This document shows, piece by piece, positions 5,832 through 60,929 of a DNA stretch of 64,000 nucleotides. Made by a program: the position numbers and the translations under genes. Numbering within the stretch: position 1 is the first letter of the stretch; the number at the start of each line of letters is the position of its first letter. The notes under the pieces are model-generated. The model saw only the letters and a list, made by a program, of their open reading frames with translations, was not told the origin of the DNA and did not search any database. Source of the stretch: Trypanosoma brucei (lineage: Eukaryota); NCBI GenBank assembly GCA_000002445.1, contig CH464491.1, positions 992,001-1,056,000 of the forward strand, written 5' to 3'.

Positions 5832-6734
5832 ATCCCACAGCTACACCAGCGGCTCCGACGCTGAAGGGACATCTGAAAGGGTGTGGTGTCGAAACACGTC
5901 GCGGGATCTTTTCAGACGACCCATTGAGTGAGGGGAAAGGGGGGAAAAGAATGGAAGAAGGTTAGCAGATGGAATGAACGAATGGGTCGTGTCAGGCATA
6001 GTGTGGGCGATGGAGTTGTCATGCTTTTATCGGTCGTTGGTGGTTAATATAGCAAATGTTATGGTGCGGCCAATTGCTAGAAGGGAAATCGAACAGGCAA
6101 CAAGTATTGTCTGTGCTCCGTTTAGCCCACTTGTGGACAGCAGTAGCAGGCTTATATTTACCATGCAGGGCTCTGCATATTTCGCGTTGCCAGTATGGAA
6201 AAAAAAAAGTGATGAGTAAACGGAAGGTGGAGGAACTTCCTTAACGAACCGAAGGGGAACGGTAGTTGCTAGACATCACGTGAACCAGAGATTTGTTCTC
6301 GCCGTACACTAAACAAGGCGTTATGTAGAAATGAAAAAAAAAATATAAGCGAAGCCCATGGGAGAGGAAACCTGGGAAGGGGGAGTTGATAAAGTCGGAA
6401 AGCGAAGGGGCCTCATATCTTTCTAGTGGCGCGTTTCCACATCGCATGGAGTTGTCCTTTTATCTCCATTTAACTTGCTCTCTTTTTGTTTCTTTCTTCT
6501 CGGTTTTATTGGCCCTCTTCATTTCGCTTTGCACTTCTTTATCTTCTGCTTCCCGTTACTTTTCCCTCCTCCTTACTACCGGGTGCAACGATTCCTCTCT
6601 CTCTCCGCTCGTTTTTTTCTCTTTTTATACGTTGTTATTTTTCGAACCTCGTTTGTTATTCCTTTTGTTTTTTTTGTTTCTTTATCTTTGGATGCGTGCG
6701 TGAGTTTGCTGTCCGTTAATTTGTTTACTTCCAG

Positions 6735-6758
6735 TATATATATATATATATATATATA
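6735..6758. repeat. (TA)12 microsatellite
   Basis: Direct reading. Confidence 0.9.
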
Positions 6759-9097
6759 CGTATGAAGGTTACTGCGTTTTATTTTAAAAGAAAGTTGTTA
6801 TTCGGCCCTTTTCGTTTTTACGCTCTTATGTCTTGTGTGCTTATGCTGTCGTTTGTTGTTGATTTTCTTTTTATTGCAATGAGCCTGCTGATATCAATTT
6901 TTGACATCATATTCGTGTTGCCAATAAAAATGAAGAGATGAGATGAAAGTAAGGAAGAGCACAGAGAGGCGACAAAACACTTCAGTTTGGATGAGTCAAG
7001 CGAAATTACTCGATGTTATTGAGAGAAATAGAAAGTAGAAAGGGAAAAGGACACGGAAGAGGTTCTTTAGTGTTGCTTTTGCTCTACAATTAGTTTCAAC
7101 CTATTTGTTTCACTCGTTTATCTATTTATTTGTGGTGAAGGGTTGAACAGTGATGACGAGAGGAATATATATATATATATACATATTTTCAAAAAAGGAA
7201 AGGAAAGGAGGTGTGATTTAAAAAAAAAAAAAGGAAAGCCGATCACAAAAAGGTGCAGTGTCGTTTCTTTCATGTTCCGTTTGTTTGTTTTTCGATGAAA
7301 ATTATAACGAAAAAAGAATAATAGTAATAGCGTTGTTTGTCTTTTACTTTTATTTCAACTTCGTTGGTTTGGTTTTGTTTTCGTTTCAGTGTTTTTTTTT
7401 TCTTCTGTGCGTGCGTATGCTCAGTTTTTGTTTTTTGTGCATGGGGGTAAAAGAGTGATCAAAGACACGTGAGTTTTTGTTTCCATTTTGTTTTGTTTGT
7501 TAAATAAAGAAAAAGAGGGAGAAAACCGGAATGTGGAGTATAACTTAAGTGCGGTCATATGTGTGTGCGTGTATGACTGTATTTAAATAAATAACAAAAT
7601 GAAAATGAAACAACAACAAGGCGCAAACATGTGAGTATTCTCCCGGAGACGAAATGAAATAAGGAAGATCCAAAACAATACAGAACTCGCTGGTAGCAAG
7701 AGGTGCAAGAAAAATAAACACACAAATGCTTACAAGGAGAGGGTCCAGTTTCGCTATATGTATTAGTTGTGTCAATGTTATATTGTGGTTTCGTGTTATT
7801 TTTATATATATTAATATATTTTCATGTATTTACTTTTATATATTTTTATTTATCCATATTTTCATACTTTACTTGTATTATATTATATTATCTTATATAT
7901 ACATTTATATATGCGTGTACGTTTGGATATATGTATACATGCTTTACTCGTTCTGTCTGTGTGTGTCTTTCTTTTTGTGTTTACTTTGGTTTCTTGCTGG
8001 TTCATGACTCTGCGGTCTTCACCACAGAAATGTGCCTGCGGTGGGGGGAAATTTATACATATTTTTGTTACTTTGATAAAAACAACAACAAACAACAGCA
8101 ACACAAAAGAAGAAAGGACAAAAGGAGTATATTTAAAAAAAAAGAAACCGGGGAAAGCAACCGCGCTGTATGTATGATTGGGCTAAAAGCAAGAAAAGAT
8201 AATGGTAGTTTGTATTATTTTAGCCCCTTTATTTTCTTCGACAGGTCGATTCGGTTTTGCGGCGAGTGAAGGCCGAAGGTTTTGGCATCCAGTTGATTGT
8301 TTATCTTTTTATCAGGCGTGCACTTTGCCGACACTGTCTGACGCTCATTTTTTTTTTGTTTTTTGTCTTCTTTTACTTGTGTATTTTCCCAACCTCGCAT
8401 TTGATTCGTATTGTTCTTCTGTATTTCACTTATGTGGCACGACTTGGAAAAATATGAAAAAAAAAGGAAACAAAAGGGGAATTGTGAGCCGCAGAGAAAA
8501 TTTACATGTTACTGTTGTTGACGTTGTTTGTTTGGCTCTTGGTGACTTTTTTTGTGTGTGTGTTTGTCACCTCTTTCATCACCGTGACGAGTCTCCCTTC
8601 TTTGATGTTTAAAGAGAAGAAAAGGGGAAGGGGAAAAAAATGAAAAAGGAAGAGAAAAAGTAACTTGAAGGAAAAGGGATGCTCTCACGGTTCTTTGCGT
8701 TCGTTTATTAGTTGTGTTGAGGTTTACTGGTGTTTGCTTTTTGTCATTCCCCACTCATTCCTTCCTTCTTTTGTTGTCTCGGCCATGTTTCTTTTTTTTA
8801 AAAAAAAAAAACTTCGTTGTGTGCATTTTTAACACTCGTTACCGTTACCGTCCCTAACATTTTGTTTACCGTTACCCATCACCAGAGCGGGGTTTTCACG
8901 AACCATAAATACAATAGCTCCTTCCCCACCATGTCAAAAAAAATGACGGGCAATAAGGAAAGAAAAATGAAAATACAGCGTCGCATCAGTTTACAGGAAT
9001 CGTAACTGGAAGCAAGGGAATTGAGTATTGTGGAAGAGAAATGGCTGTATTCATGAGACAAACACGTGGTCTCGTACGTGTATGATATGTAAGTGCA

Positions 9098-40747: not shown

Positions 40748-43700
40748 GACTCTTTCAAATTTACCTCATCGCAATGCTTAAGACATGCGTCCTCTGTGGG
40801 AAGATATTTTAATCTAGCTACTCTTTGCCAGACCGGGGTTTCTTCATTAGCAATTGCTAAGACCAGTTCCATTTGCCAATCCACTATGAGCTCACCGCCC
40901 CTCTGAAGCACAGGACTCTCAGCGGCACGGCGATGGGCCCGTTTCCACTTCGGTGCCTGGTGGGTTTTGATTCCCGCTCGGTTGCTCCTGCTTCTCACTG
41001 ATTACGTTAAGACTCTTGGGGGAAACGCACGGAGGTCACAGCGAGACGTCGGTTGTTTGAAAACACCGGCGCAACGATTGCGCTTTCTAAAAGTCCTGTT
41101 GTCTGCGGACTCCTGAAAACAGTTAATCTATCTCGAGGGAGTGCTGAAAATCCTCCGCCTTCTGTTTTGGGGCGGGCCGCCCCAGTGCGTTGGTAGTGAA
41201 TGAGACTGTGTGCCGTACCCTCCCCAGCTTTCATGGACGCCTCCTGCGCCGGATCGGAACCCGCCGCGCCCACGTGGGCCGCTGTCGGCAAGGGCGGCTG
41301 TTCTCCATCTAACGGTGCTTTCGCGTTCCATTGACTTCGCCGGAGGATGGGGTATTGTGGTTCATGGGAATCCCAGCCACGAAGGGAAGGGGGCTCGAGA
41401 AACAGGGAGCGGCGGAGCTGTGTGTTTGCAGTTCCGGGGGCGGTTGCTTAAAGGGTGGGTCTTTCCTCCACGTTATCCCTTTCCAAAAAGCCGCTGCCTG
41501 GCCGCCGCGGAGGTTACCGGTTCAGGGTCAGCGAGAGGTTGGCTTTTGGCTTCGTTTTCACTAGCCGGCTGCCGGTGCCAGTTCATCGGATGGGTTGCAG
41601 TATCACGTGAAAGGACGTTCTCTCGCGTGCGGGAAATCGTTGTGCGAAAAGGTCGGGGGAATGAACCTTGCCAGTGGTATGCCCTCTACCGCTGCCGTCC
41701 TTGTGGTCTTGCAATGCTTTGACCTGTGGGCACGGTTGTTTTCGTTTGGTTATTGATGACATATGCCCACTTTCATCAATCCGCTTCGAGGTGTGTATGG
41801 TTCGCGCGTGGAACGGCTTTGGCTTCTACATTTTTTTAAAAAGTTTGACACTGTCTTCTCAAGTTACTTGGATTTCGTATTTGGGAAAGACGCTGGTGAT
41901 ATATTGTGGTTGTTGTTATACTGGTTGGAGATCTAATGCTCAAAGTAACTATTAATTATTACAACTCGATAAAAAAAAATGTCCCGAGGGTGCTAAAGGA
42001 TATGTATAAATGATGAAGCTTTCAAACGATTTCCCTCTGACTTTGTTCGGCCGGTTGTTCAGGCGTTTTGTAAGATTTTCATTGTTGCGAACAACTATGC
42101 TTGCTTTCCTATTGGTCTATGAGATGTGAAGCTATGGGGATACCTTTGCTTGGGATTAATAAAAAAGACTACTATTCCGTCGCAAGATTCTATTTTTTTC
42201 CCCCCTCTCTTTTGCGTGTATTTTAGCCCGGTAGGTTGTTTTTCTGGTGGTCATATATGATTTTATCTCATGGTGGTGTCGCAACCGATTTTGCTTAAAT
42301 CATATGGTTCATATTTCTTAGTGAAATATTTCTTTTGTTTAATACAGGAATACAGGCCAGTCCGTGGCATGTAGCGCATGCACTGATGAGGTCGCCGTTG
42401 TTCCGCCTCCGTGATATTGTGGAGGTAAGAGTTTCCCAAAATGTCTTCGAACCCTCAATGTAGTTAATGAATATTTGGGAACGGTGCGTTGTTGCTCCTT
42501 AGGGTGGATAAGGGCCACCTGGCGAATGCTTAGCGGTTTATCTTAAGGGCCTGAGGTTGGGGATGGGGACACACATCTAATTTGTAAGTGTTTTACACAC
42601 TTTTCTGATTTTGCTTTTGAGGGAAAATTGTTTGCGTCCCTCAGTGGGCAAAAAGGCGCTTAAACTCATTAGGCCACCATATTTTAAATATTGTGATCAA
42701 TGATGTTAAATATAGGTAAACTACTGTGCCCTCGCTTGACTCAAGGAGTTCAACCAACGATGATTCCACTGCCAATGACAAATGCATGTTCGAAACAAGA
42801 GGGGATGCGGTCGTTTTTCCGCGGGCGGCGTGCAAAAAAAAAAAAAAGGACGGCGAAGTGCAGTAACAACAAAACACTTTATAAAAATAATGCCACTCTC
42901 AGCGACACGTGCTGCTAATAGAGATGGTGCTACCCCTTGGATAATTATCCGTTAGCATGGCCACTGTGCCCACTTGTTGTCATGACTCTGTTGGGCTGTC
43001 ATCTTAACTGTTTGCCTTACCGATAGGTGCCCGTGAGGCATATCCGTAACAAGCAGTTGCTTATTCCTTTTCGTCTGGGTTACTTTCCAACAAACAAAAT
43101 TTGGTTGTACAATGCGCATCGTGAGGCTTCAGCAGAGGAACGACATCATTTCCTATTGAGGATTGTATGCTTGTACATAAAATATGTGAGTGCGTTTGAT
43201 TTTTTTTAACCTTTAAGGACAAATTAGTAGCATCCGTAGCAAAGGAGTGAATGTACAAGTGTCGGTGTGAATATAATTTCTCGTTATTCACATCGCTTTT
43301 TTGGGATGACTAAACCGCTGCGTGTATTGGCGTATCGGGTTATGCTGATATAGTTTTGATGTAATGCGGTCTAGTTTGTTGGACACATGTTATTGTGTTG
43401 GACTCGAATTTGGTGGTTTACTGTTTCGGTTCTTTGAATATTTTCATTGTGGTCCGTACAAAAGTTTTGGTCAGTTATATGTGGAGGGTTGTTTAAAAAT
43501 ATTTTCTCTTCGTTACTTTTTTGTTTTATTTACAACTGCTATAATCCTATTTCCCCATTTTACCTCTTGATAGAGGTATTTTCAAAGCAATTATTAACGG
43601 CGAATACACGACATCACCATCGATTGTTGACGGGCGAGTGTTTACACTTGGGGTATACTACTAAGTGAGGCCGAGTTTGATTATTTCCCCATGTGCTGTG

Positions 43701-45042
43701 ACGTTTCTATTGTGTTAGTTTTTACACTGGTCATATACTTAAATATTATACATTATATATATATACATATATTAAATTTTGAACCTGCGTCGCATCTTCT
43801 TCAGGAAAAAATTTTCTTACTCCCAATTCTGATAGTTATTTGCATTAATCGACCAGGCGTTTGTTGTGGAGACTGTTCTTTGGTCCTTGTTAATGGATCT
43901 GTGGTCAGGTGTGCGCGTGCATGCTATCTAAAATTTGATGTTTGCATGAATCTTGGGGGTCATATATTGACGAAGATAAAGATTCTGTTCATGGAATTGA
44001 GGTACGTAATTTTTGTGCTTTTCCGATCCGGTTATTACCAAATGACAGAAACACTGTTGTATTGCCACTTCGCGTAGGGGCGTTCAATTTCTAAATTTAT
44101 ATGTTTTTGTATCTGGTCCCGTGCCTAGCCAAAATTATCCGACGCTTCCGCTGATAATGATGTTGACCATTTCCTGTGTGGAATGGAAAGTATTCTCTTA
44201 ATGCTCAGCCGTCCTAGGGCCCCACCGTACTTTTCTAAAAAAAAGAAATGATGGTGACGAGGTGTTGTAGGTTGCGTATGAGGCGAATCGGTTGAGTGCA
44301 AAGACCTGTTGTCACTTGAGGAAGACGGTTTTATGCGTGGCTTTCCTTTAAACTGTTGGGAGGTTTGAGGCAGTCGATGCGATACAGAGCCTTCTGGGTG
44401 CTTGTTTGTTGTGAATATATTTTTTAATTTGTGTTGGATTGACACGATGGGTCGCCACGGTGCCAAGTGATGTTCCTTCTACTTTTGTGTTAGGAAAATA
44501 TCCTCTGTTAACTACATGTCTACCGTTGACTTTATTAATGGTGTGATGCCTAGCGTCGTCCTAATTGTTCTCTGTGGGTGATGGTTGGAAGAGGGTAAAT
44601 ATGTACGCATAGTTTCGTCGTTGAATTTGTTTTCCACTGTACGTGACAACAAGTGTACTGTTTTCTCTGATGCAAGGTGAGCAAACTCGGCTGTGCTTTT
44701 TATATGTTTTAGCTTCTTCAACATATACATATATTTAAGGTAAGTACACCTGGAAGAACGTACAATACTTTGCGTATTTTCTTTTTTAATGACTATTCCG
44801 ATCTTGACATACAACTTGTTTGTCTTTACTTGCTACGTTGTTGCGGCGGAACCATCGGGAATGTGGCATATTCTTTTTTACACCCTTTGTTTAGCTAAAA
44901 GTGTTGTGTCGTTATCCTATGTCTTGTTCTTTTGCCTTCTCTACCTGTTCACGCAGTTTATTAGACGGAAAGGAAAGAGAAGGATCACACATATTTGTTG
45001 GGCACCGCAAGAATAGGAGCATACGCTGAAGAGAAAAGTAAG

Positions 45043-49967: not shown

Positions 49968-50789
49968 ATGGCCAAGAAGCACCTAAAGCGCCTGTATGCC
50001 CCCAAGGACTGGATGCTGAGCAAACTCACTGGTGTGTTTGCCCCTCGTCCACGTGCTGGTCCCCACAAACTACGCGAGTGCCTTTCGCTTCTGATTATTA
50101 TTCGCAACCGGCTGAAGTATGCACTAAATGCCCTCGAAGCGCAGATGATCCTTCGTCAGGGACTCGTGTGTGTAGACGGCAAGCCCCGCAAGGATGGTAA
50201 GTACCCAGCCGGTTTCATGGACGTGGTGGAGATTCCCAAGACGGGCGACCGCTTCCGCATCCTATATGACGTGAAAGGACGCTTTGCGCTTGTCCGCGTG
50301 AGCGAGGCTGAGTCGAGCATCAAGATGATGAAGGTTGTCAACGTATACACCGGCACGGGACGCATTCCTGTTGCTGTGACACACGACGGCCACCGGATTC
50401 GCTATCCCGACCCCCGTACGAGCCGTGGAGACACTTTGGTGTATGACGTGAAAGAAAAAAAGGTTTTGGACCTAATCAAGATTGGCAACGGCAAGGTTGT
50501 GATGGTGACAGGTGGTGCCAACCGTGGTCGTATTGGAGAAATTGTGTCCATTGAACGTCACCCTGGCGCCTTCGACATCGCCCGCCTCAAGGATGCGTCT
50601 GGTCACGAATTCGCAACTCGTGCCACAAACATTTTTGTGATTGGCAAGGACATGTCGAGTGTTCCAGTTACGTTACCTAAGCAACAGGGTTTGCGTATCA
50701 ACGTGATTCAGGAGCGTGAGGAAAAACTCATAGCCGCCGAAACACGCAGAACAACTCAGGCGCACAGCAAGCGAAAGACTAAGGTGTAA
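49968..50789 (+). CDS. RPS4: 40S ribosomal protein S4, copy 1
   Basis: 273 aa, MAKKHLKRLYAPKDWMLSKLTGVFAPRPRAGPHKLRE... is a canonical eukaryotic RPS4 N-terminus, with KOW-like and S4 domains. Confidence 0.95.
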   Translation: MAKKHLKRLYAPKDWMLSKLTGVFAPRPRAGPHKLRECLSLLIIIRNRLKYALNALEAQMILRQGLVCVDGKPRKDGKYPAGFMDVVEIPKTGDRFRILYDVKGRFALVRVSEAESSIKMMKVVNVYTGTGRIPVAVTHDGHRIRYPDPRTSRGDTLVYDVKEKKVLDLIKIGNGKVVMVTGGANRGRIGEIVSIERHPGAFDIARLKDASGHEFATRATNIFVIGKDMSSVPVTLPKQQGLRINVIQEREEKLIAAETRRTTQAHSKRKTKV

Positions 50790-51037: not shown

Positions 51038-51859
51038 ATGGCCAAGAAGCACCTAAAGCGCCTGTATGCCCCCAAGGACTGGATGCTGAGCAAACTCACT
51101 GGTGTGTTTGCCCCTCGTCCACGTGCTGGTCCCCACAAACTACGCGAGTGCCTTTCGCTTCTGATTATTATTCGCAACCGGCTGAAGTATGCACTAAATG
51201 CCCTCGAAGCGCAGATGATCCTTCGTCAGGGACTCGTGTGTGTAGACGGCAAGCCCCGCAAGGATGGTAAGTACCCAGCCGGTTTCATGGACGTGGTGGA
51301 GATTCCCAAGACTGGCGACCGCTTCCGCATCCTATATGACGTGAAAGGACGCTTTGCGCTTGTCCGCGTGAGCGAGGCTGAGTCGAGCATCAAGATGATG
51401 AAGGTTGTCAACGTATACACCGGCACGGGACGCATTCCTGTTGCTGTGACACACGACGGCCACCGGATTCGCTATCCCGACCCCCGTACGAGCCGTGGAG
51501 ACACTTTGGTGTATGACGTGAAAGAAAAAAAGGTTTTGGACCTAATCAAGATTGGCAACGGCAAGGTTGTGATGGTGACAGGTGGTGCCAACCGTGGTCG
51601 TATTGGAGAAATTGTGTCCATTGAACGTCACCCTGGCGCCTTCGACATCGCCCGCCTCAAGGATGCGTCTGGTCACGAATTCGCAACTCGTGCCACAAAC
51701 ATTTTTGTGATTGGCAAGGACATGTCGAGTGTTCCAGTTACGTTACCTAAGCAACAGGGTTTGCGTATCAACGTGATTCAGGAGCGTGAGGAAAAACTCA
51801 TAGCCGCCGAAACACGAAGAACAACTCAGGCGCACAGCAAGCGAAAGACTAAGGTGTAA
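51038..51859 (+). CDS. RPS4: 40S ribosomal protein S4, copy 2 (identical protein)
   Basis: Encoded protein is 100% identical to copy 1, with 2 synonymous nt differences. The flanks are unrelated. Confidence 0.95.
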   Translation: MAKKHLKRLYAPKDWMLSKLTGVFAPRPRAGPHKLRECLSLLIIIRNRLKYALNALEAQMILRQGLVCVDGKPRKDGKYPAGFMDVVEIPKTGDRFRILYDVKGRFALVRVSEAESSIKMMKVVNVYTGTGRIPVAVTHDGHRIRYPDPRTSRGDTLVYDVKEKKVLDLIKIGNGKVVMVTGGANRGRIGEIVSIERHPGAFDIARLKDASGHEFATRATNIFVIGKDMSSVPVTLPKQQGLRINVIQEREEKLIAAETRRTTQAHSKRKTKV

Positions 51860-52151: not shown

Positions 52152-53459
52152 ATGGCTCTTGGATTTTCCTCTGCGGGGGAAGTGTACATGTACGCAACAT
52201 GCATCCTTCTTGGAGTGTCCCTTCTAATGCCCCTTAACGCTCTCGTTTCCGCACCGCGCTTTATGGTGGACTACTACAAGTACGTATCTGGTAAAGAGGA
52301 TGCCGAACCGAACCTTCCCTTTTTCTGGAAGAATATTTTCACGTTCTACAATGTTGTATCGCTTGCGTCGCAGGTGATTGCTGGACCGACCGTTCTAACT
52401 CGTGCAGCCCGTCGACTTTCATTATCTGTGCGCTTTGCCCTTTCCATCACGTTGATGATGTCGGAGGTATTTGTAGTTCTCATGATGCCTGTGATCAAGG
52501 TACCTCAAACAGTTGCCATTGTTCTTCTCTGCCTTGTGACAATATTTGCAGGTATTGGGAAATCATACCATGAGGCGACGTGCTACGTTCTGGTGGCGTC
52601 GATGCCATCTAAGTTCATGTCTGCTGTTATGTTTGGAGTGTCACTATGCGGTGTAATAACGTCCACACTACAGTGCATCATCAAGGCATCGATGGAAGAT
52701 ACCTATGAGTCCGTGCTGACGCAGTCATACATTTATTTTTCACTTGGTCTACTGATAATGGCGGGTACACTTGCGATGGCTCTCTGTCTACGATATAATT
52801 CCTACGCGCAGGAGCACGTTGCTGAGTACCGTATGCTCAAACTACAAGAACAAGGAGTAGATGCTGAGTCTCAAAATGATGAGAATGAACCCGTGGCTGA
52901 AGGTAAAGGTGAAGGTGAAGGTAAGAGTGAGGGTGCCATGACGACAGCAGAGCAACTGACGGCAACTGCTGTTATGCCCGTAGCGAGGATAATCCGTATG
53001 ATGTTAGTGACAGTCTTCTGCGGCTTCTTCCTCACCTTATTTATCTTCCCCAGTCTTATTATTCCCATCGATCGTGACCACAATTGGTTTGCGACAATTG
53101 CCATTCTGCTATACAACTGTGGGGATGCTATTGGACGTTTCTCCACCTCGTTCAAGTGCGTTTGGCCGCCCCGCCGTGCTCTGCTGTACGCCACCTTCGC
53201 CCGCTTCATTTTTGTTCTGCCCTTCATGTTATGCATTTACCAATACATCCCTGGCCATGTCGGTCCGTATATCTTCTCGTTTCTCCTTGGCCTGACCAAC
53301 TGTGTGGGTGCCATGTCGATGGTGTATGGCCCAATAACCCCTGGTCTTGAGACTGCGGGTCAGAAATTGATGGCTGGACAGTTGATGGGGATTTCGCTGC
53401 TTTCTGGAATTGCCGCTGCATCTGTGCTTGCGATGATTGTGGTTGTCTTCCTACCATGA
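52152..53459 (+). CDS. Equilibrative nucleoside/nucleobase transporter (ENT family), copy 1; resembles T. brucei NT8-type purine nucleobase transporters
   Basis: 435 aa with ~11 predicted TM helices and the ENT N-terminal pattern (EVYMYATCILLGVSLLMPLNALVSAPRFMVDYY). There is a charged EG-repeat cytoplasmic loop between TM6 and TM7. Confidence 0.88.
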   Translation: MALGFSSAGEVYMYATCILLGVSLLMPLNALVSAPRFMVDYYKYVSGKEDAEPNLPFFWKNIFTFYNVVSLASQVIAGPTVLTRAARRLSLSVRFALSITLMMSEVFVVLMMPVIKVPQTVAIVLLCLVTIFAGIGKSYHEATCYVLVASMPSKFMSAVMFGVSLCGVITSTLQCIIKASMEDTYESVLTQSYIYFSLGLLIMAGTLAMALCLRYNSYAQEHVAEYRMLKLQEQGVDAESQNDENEPVAEGKGEGEGKSEGAMTTAEQLTATAVMPVARIIRMMLVTVFCGFFLTLFIFPSLIIPIDRDHNWFATIAILLYNCGDAIGRFSTSFKCVWPPRRALLYATFARFIFVLPFMLCIYQYIPGHVGPYIFSFLLGLTNCVGAMSMVYGPITPGLETAGQKLMAGQLMGISLLSGIAAASVLAMIVVVFLP

Positions 53460-53602: not shown

Positions 53603-55130
53603 TAGTTTATATCTTTTTTACATTAACAAGATTATTTTATTTTAATTATTTATTTTTTTTTGATTTTCCTTTAACTGAAGGCATGTGCGGGTAAGGCAGC
53701 ATAAACTATTTTGGACTGCCTCAGTACGCTAGCCCCTTTATAACATACGTTTTTGTTTATTTTTTTTGTCTTAGGACTGCTTCCCCGCTACTGGGTATGT
53801 TGAGGGAAAAAACGTCAGACACTTTCTCTCGGCACCTGGTGCGGTGTGTCCGGCATTTACTTCCCTTCCTTTTTTTTTATGATGCACATTACGTTGCCTG
53901 CTGAAGATATTGTTTGGAGCAATGTGCTTGTGGTGTTTGGGTGTACTGAAATTTGTGGTGAGACGGTGCGACTCTTGTGTGGTTAAGTAAAGGAATGTGA
54001 ACTGATTGTACGATATGCCACTGGTGTCGCTACCATTCACTGTCAACGAGCTTCAACCATTATTAGTGGTGTGATTTTAGTGGATATAAATAAGAAATAA
54101 ATTCCTAGTGTGTGTTTTCTCCCGTTTCCTCCTTCTTTCATGTAGGCCAACTTTAGTGCGTATGTACGGAGGTATAATATTAGTGTTTAGTAATTTCTGC
54201 GTAAATACCTGCGGTTTCCTTGTTTGCAGCAACACGTTACCTTTCAACTATAGACCTCCGTTGCGTGCTACAATCGTTATTTGTGTATTATAATTATCTA
54301 TTTTAAAAAAATTTTCTATATATATATATATATGTTTGTTTGTTGTATAACTTCGGGGAAGCGCTGTTTTGTAAGGCTGTGTTAGGAAATCTATATTACT
54401 GGTAACAGTAGTAATAAATGGGAGATCGTCTAATTTGTGTGCGTCACGGGGTTTAATGATTATTGTGATGTGCGGTTGTATTGCTGTTATTTTCTGCATC
54501 TGATATGCTTTAGGTTTAAGTACTCAATACCTTCTCCATCCATATAGATATTGTTTCCTTCTCTTTCTCCTTTTCTTTCCTTTCTTATATCTTATTCCTA
54601 CTGCCCCATTGCGATAGTGATAGCGTCAAGTTTATGTATGTTGTTGTAGTTGTACTTGCCGCGCTGCTTCGAAGCTGTTGGCTCACCAATGGTTTTACTG
54701 GATATGGTGTTCCGAAGTTTTTGGAGGACCTATTGCATATGTCCATGTTGCTGTACCGTTGTGTTTGCCTTTCGATGAACTCCCGTGGATTTGCGTGCTC
54801 GTGTTTTTGCTTTTTGCTTCTGTTATGTGGTAATGGCGGATGTGTATACGATGGCGATATCCACATATATGTGATAAGGATGGTGCAGAACCGCAACCAC
54901 TAAATACTTGCCTGTAAAATGAGCAGTATCATCCCCACTTAAGGAAACTGTAAGCTTAGTCACTTCCCTCCTTTCTCTTTCTTTTTGTACGAAGGTTAAA
55001 GCCACAAGACTCTCTTACTGAACTCAGGCAAGTGAACAACACCGCACTAAACCAGAATCGCATAAGTTACATCCACTATCCATCCACTCGGGTTTAACTG
55101 AATTGCATCGCTGGATACCTTTCGTGTGCA

Positions 55131-56438
55131 ATGGCTCTTGGATTTTCCTCTGCGGGGGAAGTGTACATGTACGCAACATGCATCCTTCTTGGAGTGTCCC
55201 TTCTAATGCCCCTTAACGCTCTCGTTTCCGCACCGCGCTTTATGGTGGACTACTACAAGTACGTATCTGGTAAAGAGGATGCCGAACCGAACCTTCCCTT
55301 TTTCTGGAAGAATATTTTCACGTTCTACAATGTTGTATCGCTTGCGTCGCAGGTGATTGCTGGACCGACCGTTCTAACTCGTGCAGCCCGTCGACTTTCA
55401 TTATCTGTGCGCTTTGCCCTTTCCATCACGTTGATGATGTCGGAGGTATTTGTAGTTCTCATGATGCCTGTGATCAAGGTACCTCAAACAGTTGCCATTG
55501 TTCTTCTCTGCCTTGTGACAATATTTGCAGGTATTGGGAAATCATACCATGAGGCGACGTGCTACGTTCTGGTGGCGTCGATGCCATCTAAGTTCATGTC
55601 TGCTGTTATGTTTGGAGTGTCACTATGCGGTGTAATAACGTCCACACTACAGTGCATCATCAAGGCATCGATGGAAGATACCTATGAGTCCGTGCTGACG
55701 CAGTCATACATTTATTTTTCACTTGGTCTACTGATAATGGCGGGTACACTTGCGATGGCTCTCTGTCTACGATATAATTCCTACGCGCAGGAGCACGTTG
55801 CTGAGTACCGTATGCTCAAACTACAAGAACAAGGAGTAGATGCTGAGTCTCAAAATGATGAGAAGGAACCCGTGGCTGAAGGTAAAGGTGAAGGTGAAGG
55901 TAAGAGTGAGGGTGCCATGACGACAGCAGAGCAACTGACGGCAACTGCTGTTATGCCCGTAGCGAGGATAATCCGTATGATGTTAGTGACAGTCTTCTGC
56001 GGCTTCTTCCTCACCTTATTTATCTTCCCCAGTCTTATTATTCCCATCGATCGTGACCACAATTGGTTTGCGACAATTGCCATTCTGCTATACAACTGTG
56101 GGGATGCTATTGGACGTTTCTCCACCTCGTTCAAGTGCGTTTGGCCGCCCCGCCGTGCTCTGCTGTACGCCACCTTCGCCCGCTTCATTTTTGTTCTGCC
56201 CTTCATGTTATGCATTTACCAATACATCCCTGGCCATGTCGGTCCGTATATCTTCTCGTTTCTCCTTGGCCTGACCAACTGTGTGGGTGCCATGTCGATG
56301 GTGTATGGCCCAATAACCCCTGGTCTTGAGACTGCGGGTCAGAAATTGATGGCTGGACAGTTGATGGGGATTTCGCTGCTTTCTGGAATTGCCGCTGCAT
56401 CTGTGCTTGCGATGATTGTGGTTGTCTTCCTACCATGA
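55131..56438 (+). CDS. ENT-family transporter, copy 2 (1 aa different from copy 1: N to K in loop)
   Basis: 435 aa. The only difference from copy 1 is QNDENEP versus QNDEKEP. Confidence 0.88.
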   Translation: MALGFSSAGEVYMYATCILLGVSLLMPLNALVSAPRFMVDYYKYVSGKEDAEPNLPFFWKNIFTFYNVVSLASQVIAGPTVLTRAARRLSLSVRFALSITLMMSEVFVVLMMPVIKVPQTVAIVLLCLVTIFAGIGKSYHEATCYVLVASMPSKFMSAVMFGVSLCGVITSTLQCIIKASMEDTYESVLTQSYIYFSLGLLIMAGTLAMALCLRYNSYAQEHVAEYRMLKLQEQGVDAESQNDEKEPVAEGKGEGEGKSEGAMTTAEQLTATAVMPVARIIRMMLVTVFCGFFLTLFIFPSLIIPIDRDHNWFATIAILLYNCGDAIGRFSTSFKCVWPPRRALLYATFARFIFVLPFMLCIYQYIPGHVGPYIFSFLLGLTNCVGAMSMVYGPITPGLETAGQKLMAGQLMGISLLSGIAAASVLAMIVVVFLP

Positions 56439-58101
56439 GTACGCTTAATGGAGGAGCCGCCTCTCACTAACACCACTTTGTTAGTACGTGACGTGTTTTA
56501 AGTGATGGAGCATCGTTGATGTTTTATCAAAGATACTATCTTAACTTGTATATATATATATATATATATATGTATTAGTTTATATCTTTTTTACATTAAC
56601 AAGATTATTTTATTTTAATTATTTATTTTTTTTTGATTTTCCTTTAACTGAAGGCATGTGCGGGTAAGGCAGCATAAACTATTTTGGACTGCCTCAGTAC
56701 GCTAGCCCCTTTATAACATACGTTTTTGTTTATTTTTTTTGTCTTAGGACTGCTTCCCCGCTACTGGGTATGTTGAGGGAAAAAACGTCAGACACTTTCT
56801 CTCGGCACCTGGTGCGGTGTGTCCGGCATTTACTTCCCTTCCTTTTTTTTTATGATGCACATTACGTTGCCTGCTGAAGATATTGTTTGGAGCAATGTGC
56901 TTGTGGTGTTTGGGTGTACTGAAATTTGTGGTGAGACGGTGCGACTCTTGTGTGGTTAAGTAAAGGAATGTGAACTGATTGTACGATATGCCACTGGTGT
57001 CGCTACCATTCACTGTCAACGAGCTTCAACCATTATTAGTGGTGTGATTTTAGTGGATATAAATAAGAAATAAATTCCTAGTGTGTGTTTTCTCCCGTTT
57101 CCTCCTTCTTTCATGTAGGCCAACTTTAGTGCGTATGTACGGAGGGATAATATTAGTGTTTAGTAATTTCTGCGTAAATACCTGCGGTTTCCTTGTTTGC
57201 AGCAACACGTTACCTTTCAACTATAGACCTCCGTTGCGTGCTACAATCGTTATTTGTGTATTATAATTATCTATTTTAAAAAATTTTTCTATATATATAT
57301 ATGTTTGTTTGTTGTATAACTTCGGGGAAGCGCTGTTTTGTAAGGCCGTGTTAGGAAATCTGTATTACTGGTAACAGTAGTAATAAATGGGAGATCGTCT
57401 AATTTGTGTGCGTCACGGGGTTTAATGATTATTGTGATGTGCGGTTGTATTGCTGTTATTTTCTGCATCTGATATGCTTTAGGTTTAAGTACTCAATACC
57501 TTCTCCATCCATATAGATATTGTTTCCTTCTCTTTCTCTTTCTCCTTTTCTTTCTTATATCTTATTCCTACTGCCCCATTGCGATAGTGATAGCGTCAAG
57601 TTTATGTATGTTGTTGTAGTTGTACTTGCCGCGCTGCTTCGAAGCTGTTGGCTCACCAATGGTTTTACTGGATATGGTGTTCCGAAGTTTTTGGAGGACC
57701 TATTGCATATGTCCATGTTGCTGTACCGTTGTGTTTGCCTTTCGATGAACTCCCGTGGATTTGCGTGCTCGTGTTTTTGCTTTTTGCTTCTGTTATGTGG
57801 TAATTGCGGATGTGTATACGATGGCGATATCCACAAAATATGTGATAAGGATGGTGCAGAACCGCAACCACTAAATACTTGCCTGTAAAATGAGCAGTAT
57901 CATCCCCACTTAAGGAAACTGTAAGCTTAGTCACTTCCCTCCTTTCTCTTTCTTTTTGTACGAAGGTTAAAGCCACAAGACTCTCTTACTGAACTCAGGC
58001 AAGTGAACAACACCGCACTAAACCAGAATCGCATAAGTTACATCCACTATCCATCCACTCGGGTTTAACTGAATTGCATCGCTGGATACCTTTCGTGTGC
58101 A

Positions 58102-59424
58102 ATGGCTCTTGGATTTTCCTCTGCGGGGGAAGTGTACATGTACGCAACATGCATCCTTCTTGGGATTTCCCTCCTCATGCCTCTCTGTGTCCTGGTTTCC
58201 GCACCAAGCTTTATGTTGAACTACTACAAGTACGTATCTGGTAAAGAGGATTCCGAACCGAACCTTCCCTTTTTCTGGAAGAATATTTTCACGTTCTACA
58301 ATGTTGTATCGCTTGCGTCGCAGGTGATTGCTGGACCGACCGTTCTAACTCGTGCAGCCCGTCGACTTTCATTATCTGTGCGCTTTGCCCTTTCCATCAC
58401 GTTGATGATGTCGGAGGTATTTGTAGTTCTCATGATGCCTGTGATCAAGGTACCTCAAACAGTTGCCATTGTTCTTCTCTGCCTTGTGACAATATTTGCA
58501 GGTATTGGGAAATCATACCATGAGGCGACGTGCTACGTTCTGGTGGCGTCGATGCCATCTAAGTTCATGTCTGCTGTTATGTTTGGAGTGTCACTATGCG
58601 GTGTAATAACGTCCACACTACAGTGCATCATCAAGGCATCGATGGATGATACCTATGAGTCTGTGCTGAAGCAGTCATACATTTATTTTTCACTTGGGAT
58701 TTTAATAATGTCCGCAACACTTGCGATGGCTCTCTGTCTACGATATAATTCCTACGCGCAGGAGCACGTTGCTGAGTACCGTATGCTCAAACTACAAGAA
58801 CAAGGAGTAGATGCTGAGTCTCAACATGATGAGAATGAACCCACTGCTGAAGGTGAAGGTGAAAGTAAAGGTGAGGGTGGCGAAGGTGATGCTGAAGGTG
58901 GCATGACGACAGCAGAGCAACTGACAGCAACTGCTGTTATGCCTGTCGTGAAGATTATCCGTATGATGTTATTATGTGTCTTCTGCGGCTTCTTCCTCAC
59001 CTTATTTATCTTCCCCAGTCTTATTATTCCCATCGATCGTAAACACAATTGGTTTGCGACAATTGCCATTCTGCTATACAACTGTGGGGATGCTATTGGA
59101 CGTTTCTCCACCTCGTTCAAGTGCGTTTGGCCGCCCCGCCGTGCTCTGCTGTATTTCACTTTTGGTCGCTTTATTTTTATTTTGCCTTTTATTCTGTGTA
59201 TTTACAAACACATCCCTGGTCACGCAGCTCCGTATATCTTCTCGTTTCTCCTTGGCCTGACCAACTGTGTGGGTGCCATGTCGATGGTGTATGGCCCAAT
59301 AACCCCTGGTCTTGAGACTGCGGGTCAGAAATTGATGGCTGGACAGTTGATGGGGATTTCGCTGCTTTCTGGAATTGCCGCTGCATCTGTGCTTGCGATG
59401 ATTGTGGTTATCTTCCTACCATGA
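58102..59424 (+). CDS. ENT-family transporter, copy 3 (440 aa; mosaic divergent paralogue)
   Basis: Long stretches are identical to copies 1 and 2. Divergent patches are the N-terminal TM1 region, TM6, a 5-aa longer EG-repeat loop, TM7 and TM9/10. Confidence 0.88.
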   Translation: MALGFSSAGEVYMYATCILLGISLLMPLCVLVSAPSFMLNYYKYVSGKEDSEPNLPFFWKNIFTFYNVVSLASQVIAGPTVLTRAARRLSLSVRFALSITLMMSEVFVVLMMPVIKVPQTVAIVLLCLVTIFAGIGKSYHEATCYVLVASMPSKFMSAVMFGVSLCGVITSTLQCIIKASMDDTYESVLKQSYIYFSLGILIMSATLAMALCLRYNSYAQEHVAEYRMLKLQEQGVDAESQHDENEPTAEGEGESKGEGGEGDAEGGMTTAEQLTATAVMPVVKIIRMMLLCVFCGFFLTLFIFPSLIIPIDRKHNWFATIAILLYNCGDAIGRFSTSFKCVWPPRRALLYFTFGRFIFILPFILCIYKHIPGHAAPYIFSFLLGLTNCVGAMSMVYGPITPGLETAGQKLMAGQLMGISLLSGIAAASVLAMIVVIFLP

Positions 59425-60371
59425 GTACGCATAATGGAGGGGCCGCCTCTCGCTTAAACATTCTTTTTTATGTATTAATTTTTTGTAATTTCTTTTTTGT
59501 TTTTAATATATGTAAAGTATCTTAACGTAACATTTTTGGTACTTAATTATTTTGTTGTTTTTTGTGATTTTCTTTTAATTGAAGGCAAGTGTGGGTGAGG
59601 CAGCATAAACTATTTTGGACTGCCTCAGTACGCTAGTCGGTTACTAAATTTGAAAATTTTGTCTTAGGACTGCTTCCCCGCTACTGGGTATGTTGAGGGA
59701 AAAAACGTCAGACACTTTCTCTCGGCACCTGGTGCGGTGTGTCCGGCATTTACTTCCCTTCCTTTTTTTTATGATGCACATTACGTTGCCTGCTGAAGAT
59801 ATTGTTTGGAGCAATGTGCTTGTGGTGTTTGGGTGTACTGAAATTTGTGGTGAGATGGTGCGACTCTTGTGTGGTTAAGTAAAGGAATGTGAACTGATTG
59901 TACGATATGCCACTGGTGTCGCTACCATTCACTGTTAATGGCCTCGACCATTTTTTTTTTTGACATTAATGGGGAAATTTTTGTTTTTGTAAAACGGCAT
60001 GAAGAAAGTAATAATACTGGTATCAGTAGTAATAAACGGGGATTCACCTAACTCTCGTGTAGTTTGCGGTTATTCTGCTTGTTGTTGTACCTACTGTGCT
60101 TTAATGCAATGTGGTTGGTGGGTCCTTCATTTCTCTATCTTTCTCTGCTTCTTCTTTAATTTTTTTTCTTATCTCTTAATCTTAATGTTTCACTGCGGCA
60201 GTTATTGCTCCAAGCTTGTGTATGTTGTAGCTGTACTTGGTGAGTTGTTCTTCTTTGTGTTTTACCTTTTTATTTGTTCCTTTATATTGTTTGATTTCCC
60301 ATTTCCCATTTCTTTTCTTCTTTTATTATTTTTTTGTTATTTTGTTTCATATTCATTAGTATTTTTGTGTA

Positions 60372-60929
60372 ATGTTAAAGTGCTCCTTGTGCTATCTAGC
60401 AAGCAAGGTGACTGCGGGTAATGCGAAAAATCAAGCCGGCCACCCAAGGCGGAGGGCTAAACTATTTCATGTTGTTCCTGGTACTCCAGTTACTCCATTT
60501 GAGAAGCTAAAGGAACAGAGGCGGCGGTTTGGTCAGGATCGTCATTCGCGTTTACCTGAATATCGACCAGGGAATAATGTCCGTATGGATCCTAATACAT
60601 ACACGTTGTACGCCACAAAGAAGGGCGTGATGACGATACGTGAGAGCCGCATTAATCCCAAGTATAAATGGCTTGATGTGGAACCTGACATTCAAAAGGT
60701 TTATCGCAGTAGAGAATTGCGACGGGCACTTCAGGAAAGGGAAATGGCCTCTATGGCGGTTGGTGAAAACTCGAACTACCGGGTAGAACTGGACTTGTTG
60801 CTGGAACCGGATTGGCGTGAGCGTGTCATGCATGTGCCGAAGGCTACGGAGCGCTTCAAGGACCCCAATCTCTTTACCCGTGGTGTTGTTAACGAGCTGT
60901 CACCCTTGGATAGGTACAGTTACACATGA
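60372..60929 (+). CDS. Hypothetical protein (start uncertain)
   Basis: 185-aa + strand ORF with mixed charged composition and no recognised domain. Confidence 0.35.
   Translation: MLKCSLCYLASKVTAGNAKNQAGHPRRRAKLFHVVPGTPVTPFEKLKEQRRRFGQDRHSRLPEYRPGNNVRMDPNTYTLYATKKGVMTIRESRINPKYKWLDVEPDIQKVYRSRELRRALQEREMASMAVGENSNYRVELDLLLEPDWRERVMHVPKATERFKDPNLFTRGVVNELSPLDRYSYT

What the first reader, a model, noticed from the sequence alone, without database searches (positions are those of the whole stretch)
58102..59424. Third transporter copy is a patchwork: blocks of identity alternating with dense-substitution blocks
Copy 3 is nucleotide-identical to copies 1 and 2 over long runs (for example 58230-58640 versus 52280-52690). 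Short segments carry clustered changes, many non-synonymous, in predicted helices: TM1 (GVSLLMPLNALVSAPRFMVD to GISLLMPLCVLVSAPSFMLN), TM6, TM7 (VARIIRMMLVTV to VVKIIRMMLLCV) and TM9/10 (LLYATFARFIFVLPFMLCIYQYIPGHVGP to LLYFTFGRFIFILPFILCIYKHIPGHAAP). This mosaic pattern is what segmental gene conversion between diverged paralogues produces. Because the changed blocks lie in helices that line ENT permeation pathways, copy 3 may have a different substrate preference from copies 1 and 2.
Basis: seen in the sequence. Interest (0 to 1): 0.55.

Follow-up and report, generated by a model that had tools for sequence, protein, structure and literature searches.

The report
Gene-conversion mosaic in trypanosome nucleobase transporter NT8.3
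The third copy in the Trypanosoma brucei NT8 nucleobase-transporter tandem array is a real patchwork, in which stretches copied recently from its neighbours alternate with short relics of a much older sister gene; this is an ordinary product of gene conversion in trypanosome gene arrays, and there is only weak evidence that it changes what the transporter carries.

Summary
The window is T. brucei brucei TREU927 chromosome 11. Copy 3 (58102-59424) is the annotated Tb927.11.3630/NT8.3.

Against NT8.1/NT8.2 it has 78 substitutions and a 15-nt insertion. Seventy-four of the substitutions fall in five blocks and four are isolated, with identical runs of up to 394 nt between them (permutation P<5e-5, also at third codon positions).

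- **Identical regions:** 0 synonymous differences in about 232 synonymous sites.
- **Four membrane-helix blocks:** pS=0.54, dS about 1, omega about 0.14. That is nearly as deep as the T. brucei/T. congolense/T. vivax comparisons.

So the blocks are old, purifying-selected relics of a diverged paralogue, and the identical stretches are recent conversion tracts. The last copy of the array in T. b. gambiense and T. b. equiperdum shares copy 3's distinct 3'UTR. Each carries a different subset of the same haplotype blocks (Rm>=7), which shows conversion is ongoing and patchy.

The functional inference is only partly supported:
- The blocks lie in TM1, the TM5-6 loop with TM6, the start of TM7, and TM9 with its loop. 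TM10 proper is not involved.
- TM2-5, TM8, nearly all of TM10 and nearly all of TM11 are identical.
- One change, N29C, aligns with cavity-facing hENT1 N30, but it is absent from the gambiense terminal copy.

This is a new example of a known process, of modest interest.

The parts
58102..59424 (+). Copy 3 CDS. This is T. brucei TREU927 Tb927.11.3630 (NT8.3; XP_828444.1), a 440-aa ENT/SLC29 transporter and the last gene of the NT8 array.
   Evidence: ORF. Exact 100% match to the TREU927 protein on a 5.26-Mb contig. Pfam PF01733 at 100.8 bits. The model has 11 TM helices and matches hENT1. The locus name NT8.1/8.2/8.3 is used in PMC9331716 and PMC8776092.
52152..53459 (+). Copy 1 (TbNT8.1, Tb927.11.3610), a donor-type sequence.
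   Evidence: It is identical to copy 2 except for 1 nt (52886 T versus 55865 G).
55131..56438 (+). Copy 2 (NT8.2, Tb927.11.3620), a donor-type sequence.
57838..58163 (+). Identity tract 1: 264 nt of upstream region/5'UTR plus the first 62 nt of the CDS, 100% identical to copy 2.
58164..58219 (+). Divergent block 1, covering TM1 and the short helix after it. It has 17 substitutions in 56 nt (V22I, N29C, A30V, R36S, V39L, D40N).
   Evidence: (pS 0.61, pN 0.17). C29, V30 and S51 are states not seen in 37 other kinetoplastid homologues. The 5' half of the same nucleotide haplotype is present in T. b. equiperdum copies 1 and 4.
58253..58646 (+). Identity tract 2: 394 nt with no difference, encoding extracellular loop 1 through TM5 (TM2-TM5).
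   Evidence: In the T. b. equiperdum terminal copy, part of this interval still carries divergent patches (alignment columns 268-444 and 540-573), so TREU927 has been overwritten here.
58647..58716 (+). Divergent block 2, covering the TM5-TM6 loop and TM6. It has 12 substitutions in 70 nt (E182D, T190K, L200I, A204S, G205A).
   Evidence: (pS 0.39, pN 0.08). Its 3' part (I200/S204/A205) is the only block piece present in the terminal copy of all three T. brucei genomes.
58825..58901 (+). Divergent block 3 in the large intracellular loop, including a 15-nt insertion (58878-58892) in a GAAGGT-like Gly/Glu repeat.
   Evidence: (omega about 1.4; few sites). The model shows pLDDT below 50 at residues 240-262. 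The block is seen only in TREU927 copy 3.
58926..58977 (+). Divergent block 4, at the cytoplasmic start of TM7. It has 11 substitutions in 52 nt (A283V, R284K, V291L, T292C).
   Evidence: (pS 0.36, pN 0.10). T. b. gambiense copy 5 carries only the 5' half (VK), and T. b. equiperdum copy 4 carries mainly the 3' half (LC).
59041..59043 (+). An isolated two-nucleotide codon change (D314K) in the TM7-TM8 loop, inside an otherwise identical 176-nt stretch.
59154..59228 (+). Divergent block 5, covering TM9, the TM9-TM10 loop and the first two residues of TM10. It has 23 substitutions in 75 nt (A352F, A355G, V360I, M364I, Q369K, Y370H, V375A, G376A).
   Evidence: (pS 0.82, pN 0.15). Copy 3 keeps the family-consensus state at K369, I360 and A376, while NT8.1 is derived there. 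The block is seen only in TREU927 copy 3 among the genomes sampled.
59229..59409 (+). Identity tract: 181 nt encoding most of TM10 and TM11. It is followed by the single V437I change at 59410.
   Evidence: I437 is also present in T. b. gambiense copy 5.
59425..59650 (+). Terminal-type 3'UTR segment. It is diverged from the copy 1/2 UTR, has several deletions and lacks the (TA)n tract, but retains the purine-response stem-loop core at 59598-59625.
   Evidence: The same UTR type follows the terminal copy in T. b. gambiense and T. b. equiperdum. The PuRE element is described in PMC4066783 and PMC8053114.
59651..59940 (+). Identity island in the 3'UTR, ~99% identical to 56741-57020 downstream of copy 2. 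After it the repeat unit ends and unique sequence begins.

Best explanation
Copy 3 is NT8.3, the 3'-terminal gene of the T. brucei chromosome-11 NT8 nucleobase-transporter array. It descends from a paralogue that split from the NT8.1/8.2 type long ago; synonymous divergence in the surviving blocks is about 1 per site. Because it sits in tandem with near-identical units, it is repeatedly repaired or copied from them by short-tract, non-reciprocal recombination (gene conversion), with tracts of about 100-400 nt. Each event overwrites a piece of copy 3 with NT8.1-type sequence and erases every difference there, silent ones included.

Transfers occasionally go the other way too; a non-terminal T. 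b. equiperdum copy carries the TM1 block. The distinct 3'UTR, and the end of the repeat unit just downstream, probably reduce but do not abolish homogenisation of the last copy.

**Shown:** the mosaic, its statistical significance, the bimodal synonymous divergence, the sharing and reshuffling of blocks among subspecies, and the ENT fold with helix positions.

**Inferred:** the direction of most transfers, the age of the paralogue, and the idea that the pattern is largely neutral erosion rather than selected retention.
For: 1. Clustering has P<5e-5, and the same holds at third codon positions.
2. Identical regions have 0 synonymous and 4 non-synonymous differences over 945 nt. The helix blocks have pS 0.54, dS about 0.96, dN 0.136 and omega 0.14.
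3. Between species, pS for the same gene is 0.67-0.88, so the blocks approach species-level depth.
4. The haplotype table of 11 T. brucei copies shows the same nucleotide haplotypes in different combinations, with breakpoints inside the blocks. The equiperdum terminal copy keeps divergent patches where TREU927 copy 3 is NT8.1-like.
5. Rm>=7, with 291 four-gamete-incompatible site pairs.
6. The terminal position and the terminal-type 3'UTR are conserved in TREU927, DAL972 and equiperdum.
7. No other T. brucei protein closer than the T. congolense orthologues (66%) turned up, so no separate donor gene was seen.
8. Both types carry derived states: copy 3 in TM1, NT8.1 in TM7, TM9 and the start of TM10. 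That is expected for two long-separated lineages.
9. The syntenic T. vivax array has four copies that are 99% homogeneous, and the T. congolense array has three copies at 97-98% protein identity. Homogenisation is therefore the default at this locus.
10. Concerted evolution with partial conversion, including in UTRs, is documented for T. brucei tandem arrays in general (PMC1855330).
Against: - The loop block and the TM9 block are seen only in the TREU927 reference, so they are not independently confirmed.
- Block lengths are short (17-18 synonymous sites each), so the age estimates are noisy and partly saturated.
- The direction of transfer cannot be proven from three genomes.
- The reference genomes are haploid consensus assemblies of diploid, heterozygous strains with ~3-kb near-identical repeats. 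Some breakpoints, especially in the gapped DAL972 array, could therefore be assembly or allele chimeras.
- Protein searches cover only annotated proteomes. An unannotated donor pseudogene elsewhere in the genome was not excluded.
Confidence: 0.82

Rival explanations
1. Reverse polarity. Copy 3 began as a recent NT8.1-like duplicate and received several very short (50-75 nt) conversion tracts from a diverged donor that is unsampled or now lost, such as a pseudogene or a subtelomeric NT8-like copy of the kind T. congolense has.
For: T. congolense has dispersed NT8-like genes next to VSG genes, about 80% identical to its chr11 array. Copy 3 resembles that type at a few residues (VVK, MLL, K-H). 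A non-terminal equiperdum copy has acquired the TM1 block, so transfers of divergent blocks do occur.
Against: No such donor was found among T. brucei proteins. The terminal copy also has its own diverged 3'UTR, conserved across subspecies, which is not expected for a recent duplicate. The equiperdum terminal copy carries extra divergent patches in different places, so the union of blocks covers much of the gene, as expected for erosion of one old copy. Six or more independent imports into the same gene is less parsimonious.
Confidence: 0.1
2. No recombination. The blocks are local mutation or positive-selection hot spots in particular helices, and the rest of the gene is simply highly constrained.
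For: About 36 of 40 amino-acid-changing differences fall in the blocks. The intracellular loop block has omega of about 1.4.
Against: Constraint on the protein cannot remove silent changes, yet the identical regions have 0 of ~232 synonymous sites changed, against pS 0.54 in the helix blocks. Omega in those blocks is 0.14. The same multi-nucleotide haplotypes recur in other copies in new combinations. The 5' flank and a 290-nt UTR island are also identical.
Confidence: 0.02
3. Artefact. The mosaic is a chimera produced by assembling or consensus-polishing reads from near-identical 3-kb repeats, or from two heterozygous alleles.
For: The repeats are ~3 kb and >99% identical. The DAL972 array contains a truncated 256-aa gene, and an internal copy there is followed by terminal-type downstream sequence, which suggests assembly problems. 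Two blocks are unique to TREU927.
Against: Three independent assemblies place a divergent copy in the same terminal position with the same UTR type, and they share exact block haplotypes (TM1, TM6, TM7 halves, I437). A chimera still needs a real diverged template, so the old paralogue must exist. The copy-3 ORF is intact, with omega well below 1 in the blocks.
Confidence: 0.05

Closest known systems
TbNT8.1 / TbNBT1 (Tb927.11.3610), the characterised T. brucei purine nucleobase transporter of the ENT (SLC29) family
   Same: 92% protein identity, the same array, the same 11-TM ENT fold and identical TM2-5 and TM8. TM10 differs only in its first two residues and TM11 only at V437I. The 5' flank is identical, and the purine-response stem-loop core in the 3'UTR is identical.
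   Different: 35 aligned residue differences plus a 5-residue insertion, and a distinct proximal 3'UTR. N29C and A30V in TM1 are states not seen in 37 other kinetoplastid homologues. In the literature I could search, NT8.3 is mentioned only as part of the knocked-out locus (PMC8776092, PMC9331716); no separate transport data were found.
Concerted evolution with partial gene conversion in T. brucei tandem arrays (Jackson 2007, PMC1855330; cited there: the PGK-B chimaera and the THT1/THT2 hexose transporters)
   Same: Tandem units are homogenised by conversion. Conversion tracts span CDS/UTR boundaries. A copy at the edge of the array with its own UTR escapes in part. Phylogenetic signal differs between segments.
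   Different: That survey lists this array (Tb122, 'nucleobase transporter') as only two 1308-bp copies, so the third, mosaic copy does not appear to have been analysed there. The relic blocks here are unusually deep (dS about 1) and very short (56-75 nt).
Human ENT1 (PDB 6OB6/6OB7), the structural reference for the fold
   Same: The model superposes with TM-score 0.85-0.89 (normalised to the hENT1 chain) and rmsd 2.4-3.3 A. The TM8 N/D/R residues and the TM1 P-x-N motif are alignable.
   Different: About 16% sequence identity, and a nucleobase rather than nucleoside carrier. The residue equivalences used for the functional reading come from a weak profile alignment (E=4e-6 overall; the N-terminal stretch scores 13.5 bits).

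Membership tests
Equilibrative nucleoside transporter family (ENT / SLC29, Pfam PF01733) | Significant match to the Nucleoside_tran profile | tested here: met
   PF01733 at 100.8 bits against a cut-off of 29.8, E=1.2e-28, residues 135-436. The same family is precomputed for all homologues.
Equilibrative nucleoside transporter family (ENT / SLC29, Pfam PF01733) | Eleven transmembrane helices in a 6+5 arrangement, with a large loop between TM6 and TM7 and a fold like hENT1 | tested here: met
   The AlphaFold model has pLDDT 86.7 and pTM 0.85, with 11 long helices and a disordered loop at 240-262. The best PDB matches are hENT1 6OB6/6OB7/8TZI, with TM-score 0.85-0.89 normalised to the hENT1 chain.
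Equilibrative nucleoside transporter family (ENT / SLC29, Pfam PF01733) | Conserved TM8 polar residues that bind substrate in hENT1 (N338, D341, R345) | tested here: met
   The profile alignment pairs N327, D330 and R334 with them. All lie in an identity tract shared by the three copies.
Kinetoplastid NT8/NT3 nucleobase-transporter clade | Closest relatives are the characterised nucleobase carriers TbNT8.1 and Leishmania NT3, in the syntenic position (RPS4 x2 - NT array - 185-aa ORF - adenylosuccinate synthetase) | tested here: met
   92% identity to TbNT8.1 and 50-55% to L. donovani NT3. The same gene order is found in T. vivax, T. b. gambiense and T. b. equiperdum.
Kinetoplastid NT8/NT3 nucleobase-transporter clade | Demonstrated nucleobase transport by this particular copy | not testable with these tools
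   Only whole-locus knockouts were found (PMC8776092, PMC9331716). No copy-specific uptake data were found in the searchable library.
Gene-conversion mosaic between tandem paralogues | Differences are significantly clustered, including at silent positions | tested here: met
   The permutation tests give P<5e-5 for all sites and for third codon positions.
Gene-conversion mosaic between tandem paralogues | Synonymous divergence is bimodal: about 0 in converted tracts and high elsewhere | tested here: met
   0 of 232 synonymous sites changed in identical regions, against pS 0.36-0.82 in the helix blocks.
Gene-conversion mosaic between tandem paralogues | Segments have conflicting genealogies, shown as four-gamete violations among copies | tested here: met
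   Rm>=7, with 291 incompatible site pairs among 10 full-length T. brucei copies. The haplotype table shows the blocks in different combinations.
Gene-conversion mosaic between tandem paralogues | A plausible donor lies nearby | tested here: met
   Copies 1 and 2 lie 3 and 6 kb upstream on the same strand and are identical to copy 3 over the tracts.
Gene-conversion mosaic between tandem paralogues | A formal GENECONV/RDP analysis with multiple-comparison correction, and phased molecules | not tested
   Those programs were not available. My own permutation test and Hudson-Kaplan Rm were used instead. Phasing needs read data.

The most novel reading that the evidence does not exclude
The relic blocks are not just leftovers. 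On this reading NT8.3 is a functionally distinct nucleobase carrier whose defining residues are kept from homogenisation by selection, above all the cavity-facing N29C/A30V pair in TM1. Those two states occur in none of 37 other kinetoplastid homologues. The two sequence types may also predate the T. brucei/T. congolense split: copy 3 shares VVK, MLL and K-H with the dispersed T. congolense type, and NT8.1 shares R, Y and V-G with the T. congolense chr11 type. If so, the array would hide an old two-isoform system under a veneer of concerted evolution.
Probability: 0.15. Interest if true: 0.5.

Novelty: new member of a known kind. Interest (0 to 1): 0.3.

Why it matters
**For trypanosome biology.** The 'NT8 locus' is not three equivalent genes. 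Its last member keeps pieces of an old sister gene and a different proximal 3'UTR. Copy-specific expression and transport could therefore differ, and reads or probes from the identical tracts cannot tell the copies apart. One ribosome-profiling study lists Tb927.11.3630 among genes with stage-dependent translational efficiency (PMC4210626).

**For purine salvage and drug uptake.** N29C/A30V is a cheap, testable candidate for altered substrate or inhibitor preference.

**For genome evolution.** This is a clean, small-scale illustration of how short-tract conversion erodes a diverged tandem paralogue differently in sister subspecies. The process itself is already well documented in T. brucei.

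Tried and rejected
- **Single-sequence search of the PDB** with copy 3 found nothing. A 14-sequence profile was needed to reach hENT1. The N-terminal part of that alignment is weak (13.5 bits), so residue equivalences in TM1 should be treated as approximate.
- **Locating the copy-3 and NT8.1 block types at silent sites.** I tried to see whether copy 3's blocks are closer than NT8.1's to T. congolense or T. vivax. Synonymous sites are saturated (pS 0.5-1.0) and neither type is consistently closer. DNA for the syntenic T. congolense chr11 genes (TCIL3000_11_3570-3590) is not held in the contig collection, so the trans-species question stays open.
- **First codon-block calculation.** It used coordinates not corrected for the 15-nt indel (lower part). 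It was redone correctly, and only values are used.
- **Jackson 2007 main text** has no mention of nucleobase transporters. The array appears only in a supplementary table, as a two-copy array.
- **Literature searches** for TbNT8.3, Tb927.11.3630 and Tb11.02.1106 returned no paper analysing copy 3 on its own.
- **Positive selection** as an explanation for the blocks was rejected on omega 0.14.
- **Selection retaining specific blocks** was considered and judged weak. Only the TM6 piece (I200/S204/A205) is present in all three terminal copies, and TM6 is, to my recollection of the hENT1 structure paper, peripheral.
Full report
**What the sequence is.** The window carries three same-strand ORFs of the equilibrative nucleoside transporter family at 52152-53459, 55131-56438 and 58102-59424, downstream of two ribosomal protein S4 genes. 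Copy 3 translates to a protein identical to XP_828444.1/EAN79332.1 of Trypanosoma brucei brucei TREU927, on a 5.26-Mb contig. Copies 1 and 2 are the proteins annotated as nucleobase/nucleoside transporter 8.1. The literature calls the locus NT8.1/NT8.2/NT8.3, or Tb927.11.3610/3620/3630 (PMC9331716, PMC8776092). Copy 3 matches Pfam PF01733 at 100.8 bits. An AlphaFold model built on 39 homologues (pLDDT 86.7, pTM 0.85) has eleven long helices and a disordered TM6-TM7 loop. It superposes on human ENT1 (6OB6) with TM-score 0.89, normalised to the hENT1 chain.

**Checking the observation.** Copies 1 and 2 differ by one nucleotide. Copy 3 differs from copy 1 by 78 substitutions and a 15-nt insertion. 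In window coordinates the differences form these groups:

| Interval | Differences |
|---|---|
| 58164-58219 | 17 in 56 nt |
| 58647-58716 | 12 in 70 nt |
| 58825-58977 | loop plus TM7, 37 differing columns including the insertion |
| 59041-59043 | one codon |
| 59154-59228 | 23 in 75 nt |
| 58252, 59410 | singletons |

The longest identical run is 394 nt (58253-58646). In 20,000 permutations of the differences the mean longest run was 79 and the maximum 202. The squared coefficient of variation of the gaps was 10.3 against 0.9. The result holds when only third codon positions are permuted, all with P<5e-5. Its example run, 58230-58640, contains one mismatch at 58252.
- The 264 nt upstream of the ATG are identical to copy 2.
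- The first ~225 nt of the 3'UTR are diverged and carry deletions.
- 59651-59940 is again ~99% identical.
- After that the repeat unit ends.

**What kind of divergence sits in the blocks.** Nei-Gojobori counts give the following:

| Region | Length | Synonymous | Non-synonymous |
|---|---|---|---|
| Identical regions | 945 nt, ~232 synonymous sites | 0 differences | 4 differences |
| Four helix blocks, pooled | 282 nt | pS 0.54, dS about 0.96 | dN 0.136 |

Omega in the pooled helix blocks is 0.14. Only the disordered-loop block has omega near 1. The total absence of silent change between the blocks cannot come from protein constraint, so those stretches share very recent common ancestry. The blocks themselves are old and under purifying selection. 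For scale, the same gene compared between T. brucei and T. congolense or T. vivax has pS 0.67-0.88. The relics therefore approach species-level depth, and block 5 reaches pS 0.82. Each block holds only 16-18 synonymous sites, so these ages are rough.

**Evidence from other genomes.** The 90%-identity cluster of NT8.1 holds ten further T. brucei proteins. Aligning them shows that some carry subsets of copy 3's residues. I fetched the arrays of T. b. gambiense DAL972 (L001) and T. b. equiperdum (L002). In both, as in the window, the array ends with a copy followed by a ~185-190-aa ORF and adenylosuccinate synthetase. The terminal copies share copy 3's distinct proximal 3'UTR. The nucleotide haplotype table is the key result:
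- The gambiense terminal copy has the TM6 block, the 5' half of the TM7 block and I437, but NT8.1-type TM1, loop and TM9.
- The equiperdum terminal copy has the 5' half of the TM1 block, the TM6 block and mainly the 3' half of the TM7 block. It also has additional divergent patches (columns 268-444 and 540-573) where TREU927 copy 3 is identical to NT8.1.
- A non-terminal equiperdum copy has acquired the 5' half of the TM1 block.

Ten full-length copies give 291 four-gamete-incompatible site pairs and a minimum of seven recombination events.

**Most likely mechanism.** The simplest reading is that the terminal gene is an old paralogue being eroded patch by patch. Short non-reciprocal transfers come from the upstream NT8.1-type units, and occasional transfers go the other way. 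Several points support this polarity:
- The donors for the identical tracts are present in cis.
- No other close T. brucei paralogue was found.
- The terminal UTR type is stable across subspecies while the CDS patchwork differs.
- The union of divergent patches across genomes covers much of the gene.
- Both types carry derived residues. Copy 3's C29, V30 and S51 are absent from 37 other kinetoplastid homologues (N 32/37, A 31/37, A 37/37). NT8.1 is the derived one at R284, V360, Q369 and G376.
- Homogenisation is the norm at this locus. The syntenic T. vivax array has four copies differing at 1-10 sites, and the T. congolense chr11 array has three proteins 97-98% identical.

The general process, including conversion tracts that span UTR boundaries and edge copies that escape, was described for T. 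brucei arrays by Jackson (PMC1855330). That survey's supplementary table lists this array as two 1308-bp copies, so copy 3 seems not to have been analysed there.

**Rivals.**
- **Imports from an unsampled donor.** The blocks would be imports into a young duplicate. This is not excluded, but it needs many independent short imports and does not explain the old terminal UTR.
- **Hot spots or positive selection without recombination.** The synonymous-site pattern and omega 0.14 refute this.
- **Assembly or allelic chimera.** This is a real concern for 3-kb near-identical repeats. The DAL972 array contains a truncated gene and an internal copy followed by terminal-type downstream sequence. However, three assemblies agree on a divergent terminal copy with shared exact haplotypes. 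The loop and TM9 blocks are so far seen only in TREU927.

**The functional claim.** On the model, the changes fall as follows:
- TM1 (I22, C29, V30).
- The short helix and loop after TM1 (S36, L39, N40, S51).
- The TM5-6 loop and TM6 (D182, K190, I200, S204, A205).
- The disordered intracellular loop.
- The cytoplasmic start of TM7 (V283, K284, L291, C292).
- The TM7-8 loop (K314).
- TM9 (F352, G355, I360, I364) and the TM9-10 loop (K369, H370).
- The first turn of TM10 (A375, A376).
- The end of TM11 (I437).

A paper I read describes hENT1 TM9 as filling the space that TM9 and TM12 occupy in MFS transporters (PMC9678926). That TM3, TM6 and TM9 are peripheral supports rather than cavity-lining helices is my recollection of Wright and Lee 2019, not re-read here. 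TM2-TM5, TM8, the rest of TM10 and nearly all of TM11 are identical between copies. This includes N327/D330/R334, which the profile alignment pairs with hENT1 N338/D341/R345.

The one striking candidate is N29C. It aligns with hENT1 N30, which faces the central cavity between L26 and M33 (PMC9678926). It is N in 32 of 37 homologues. The gambiense terminal copy has N29, however. The only block piece retained in all three terminal copies is in TM6. A different substrate preference is therefore possible but not indicated by the pattern, and no copy-specific transport data were found.

**Regulatory note.** The purine-response stem-loop of the NT8 3'UTR (PMC4066783, PMC8053114) has an exactly conserved 28-nt core in all three copies, at 53694, 56667 and 59598. 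In copy 3 it sits inside otherwise diverged UTR. An A-to-G change next to the core lengthens the predicted stem: -24.3 kcal/mol with z=-3.6, against -18.0 with z=-0.4, for 66-nt windows that are offset from each other by ~6 nt relative to the core.

**Verdict.** The mosaic is real and highly significant. It is best explained by short-tract gene conversion eroding an old terminal paralogue (confidence about 0.8). It is a new, well-resolved example of a process already known in trypanosome tandem arrays, at a locus that is already annotated and named. The suggested change in substrate preference rests mainly on one TM1 residue and is unproven. Interest is modest (0.3). The most novel reading not excluded is a selectively maintained, functionally distinct NT8.3 of pre-speciation origin, to which I give about 15%.

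Noticed in passing
window 53694-53721, 56667-56694, 59598-59625: The core of the published purine-response stem-loop (PuRE) of the NT8 3'UTR is exactly conserved in all three copies. In copy 3 it lies in an otherwise diverged UTR. A neighbouring A-to-G change (59597) extends the predicted stem, giving a more stable fold than in copy 2.
   Followed up: partly
window 49968-50789 and 51038-51859: Two tandem 40S ribosomal protein S4 genes encode identical 273-aa proteins and differ at only 2 nucleotides (CDS positions 276 and 780). This is another homogenised array directly upstream. The same RPS4 x2 - NT array order is present in T. vivax (L005).
   Followed up: partly
window 58878-58892: The 15-nt insertion of copy 3 lies in a GAAGGT/GAGGGT-like repeat that encodes Gly/Glu in the disordered intracellular loop. 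It looks like repeat slippage and is absent from every other T. brucei copy examined.
   Followed up: partly
window 56549-56580 (and the equivalent position downstream of copy 1): A (TA)n microsatellite and an AT-rich stretch in the 3'UTR of copies 1 and 2 are missing from the terminal-type UTR of copy 3. Copies 1 and 2 themselves differ in TA repeat number.
   Followed up: no
L003 10001-11344 and L004 10001-11326 (T. congolense IL3000 contigs): Some T. congolense NT8-like genes are not in the chr11 array. They sit among VSG_B-domain genes and cathepsin-like peptidase genes, in what looks like subtelomeric or VSG-array context. Another non-array T. congolense type (P0003/P0059, on short contigs whose gene context I did not examine) is about 80% identical in protein to the chr11 array copies.
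   Followed up: partly
L005 5622-6932 versus the three downstream copies (T. vivax): The first of four T. vivax array copies differs from the others mainly by a tight cluster of 5 changes at CDS nt 222-234. This is a miniature version of the same mosaic pattern, but here in the 5'-terminal copy.
   Followed up: no
L001 4996-8335 (T. b. gambiense DAL972): The copy at 4996-6303 is followed by terminal-type downstream sequence and then by a truncated 256-aa gene. This suggests an assembly gap or a partial duplication of the array end in that reference.
   Followed up: no
window 59041-59043, 58252, 59410: In the identical regions, all four differences are amino-acid-changing and none is silent. 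They are the D314K double change in one codon, A51S and V437I. S51 also occurs in the NT8.1 sequences of two other strains (AAO60071, AAM64205), and I437 occurs in the gambiense terminal copy.
   Followed up: partly
window 6001-8000 and 42001-44000: Two 2-kb stretches have markedly low G+C (0.36 and 0.40), against about 0.50 elsewhere in the window. They were not examined.
   Followed up: no
window 60372-60929: A 185-aa ORF sits directly downstream of the array with no Pfam match. It is conserved in position in T. vivax (185 aa) and T. b. equiperdum (191 aa), between the NT array and adenylosuccinate synthetase.
   Followed up: partly
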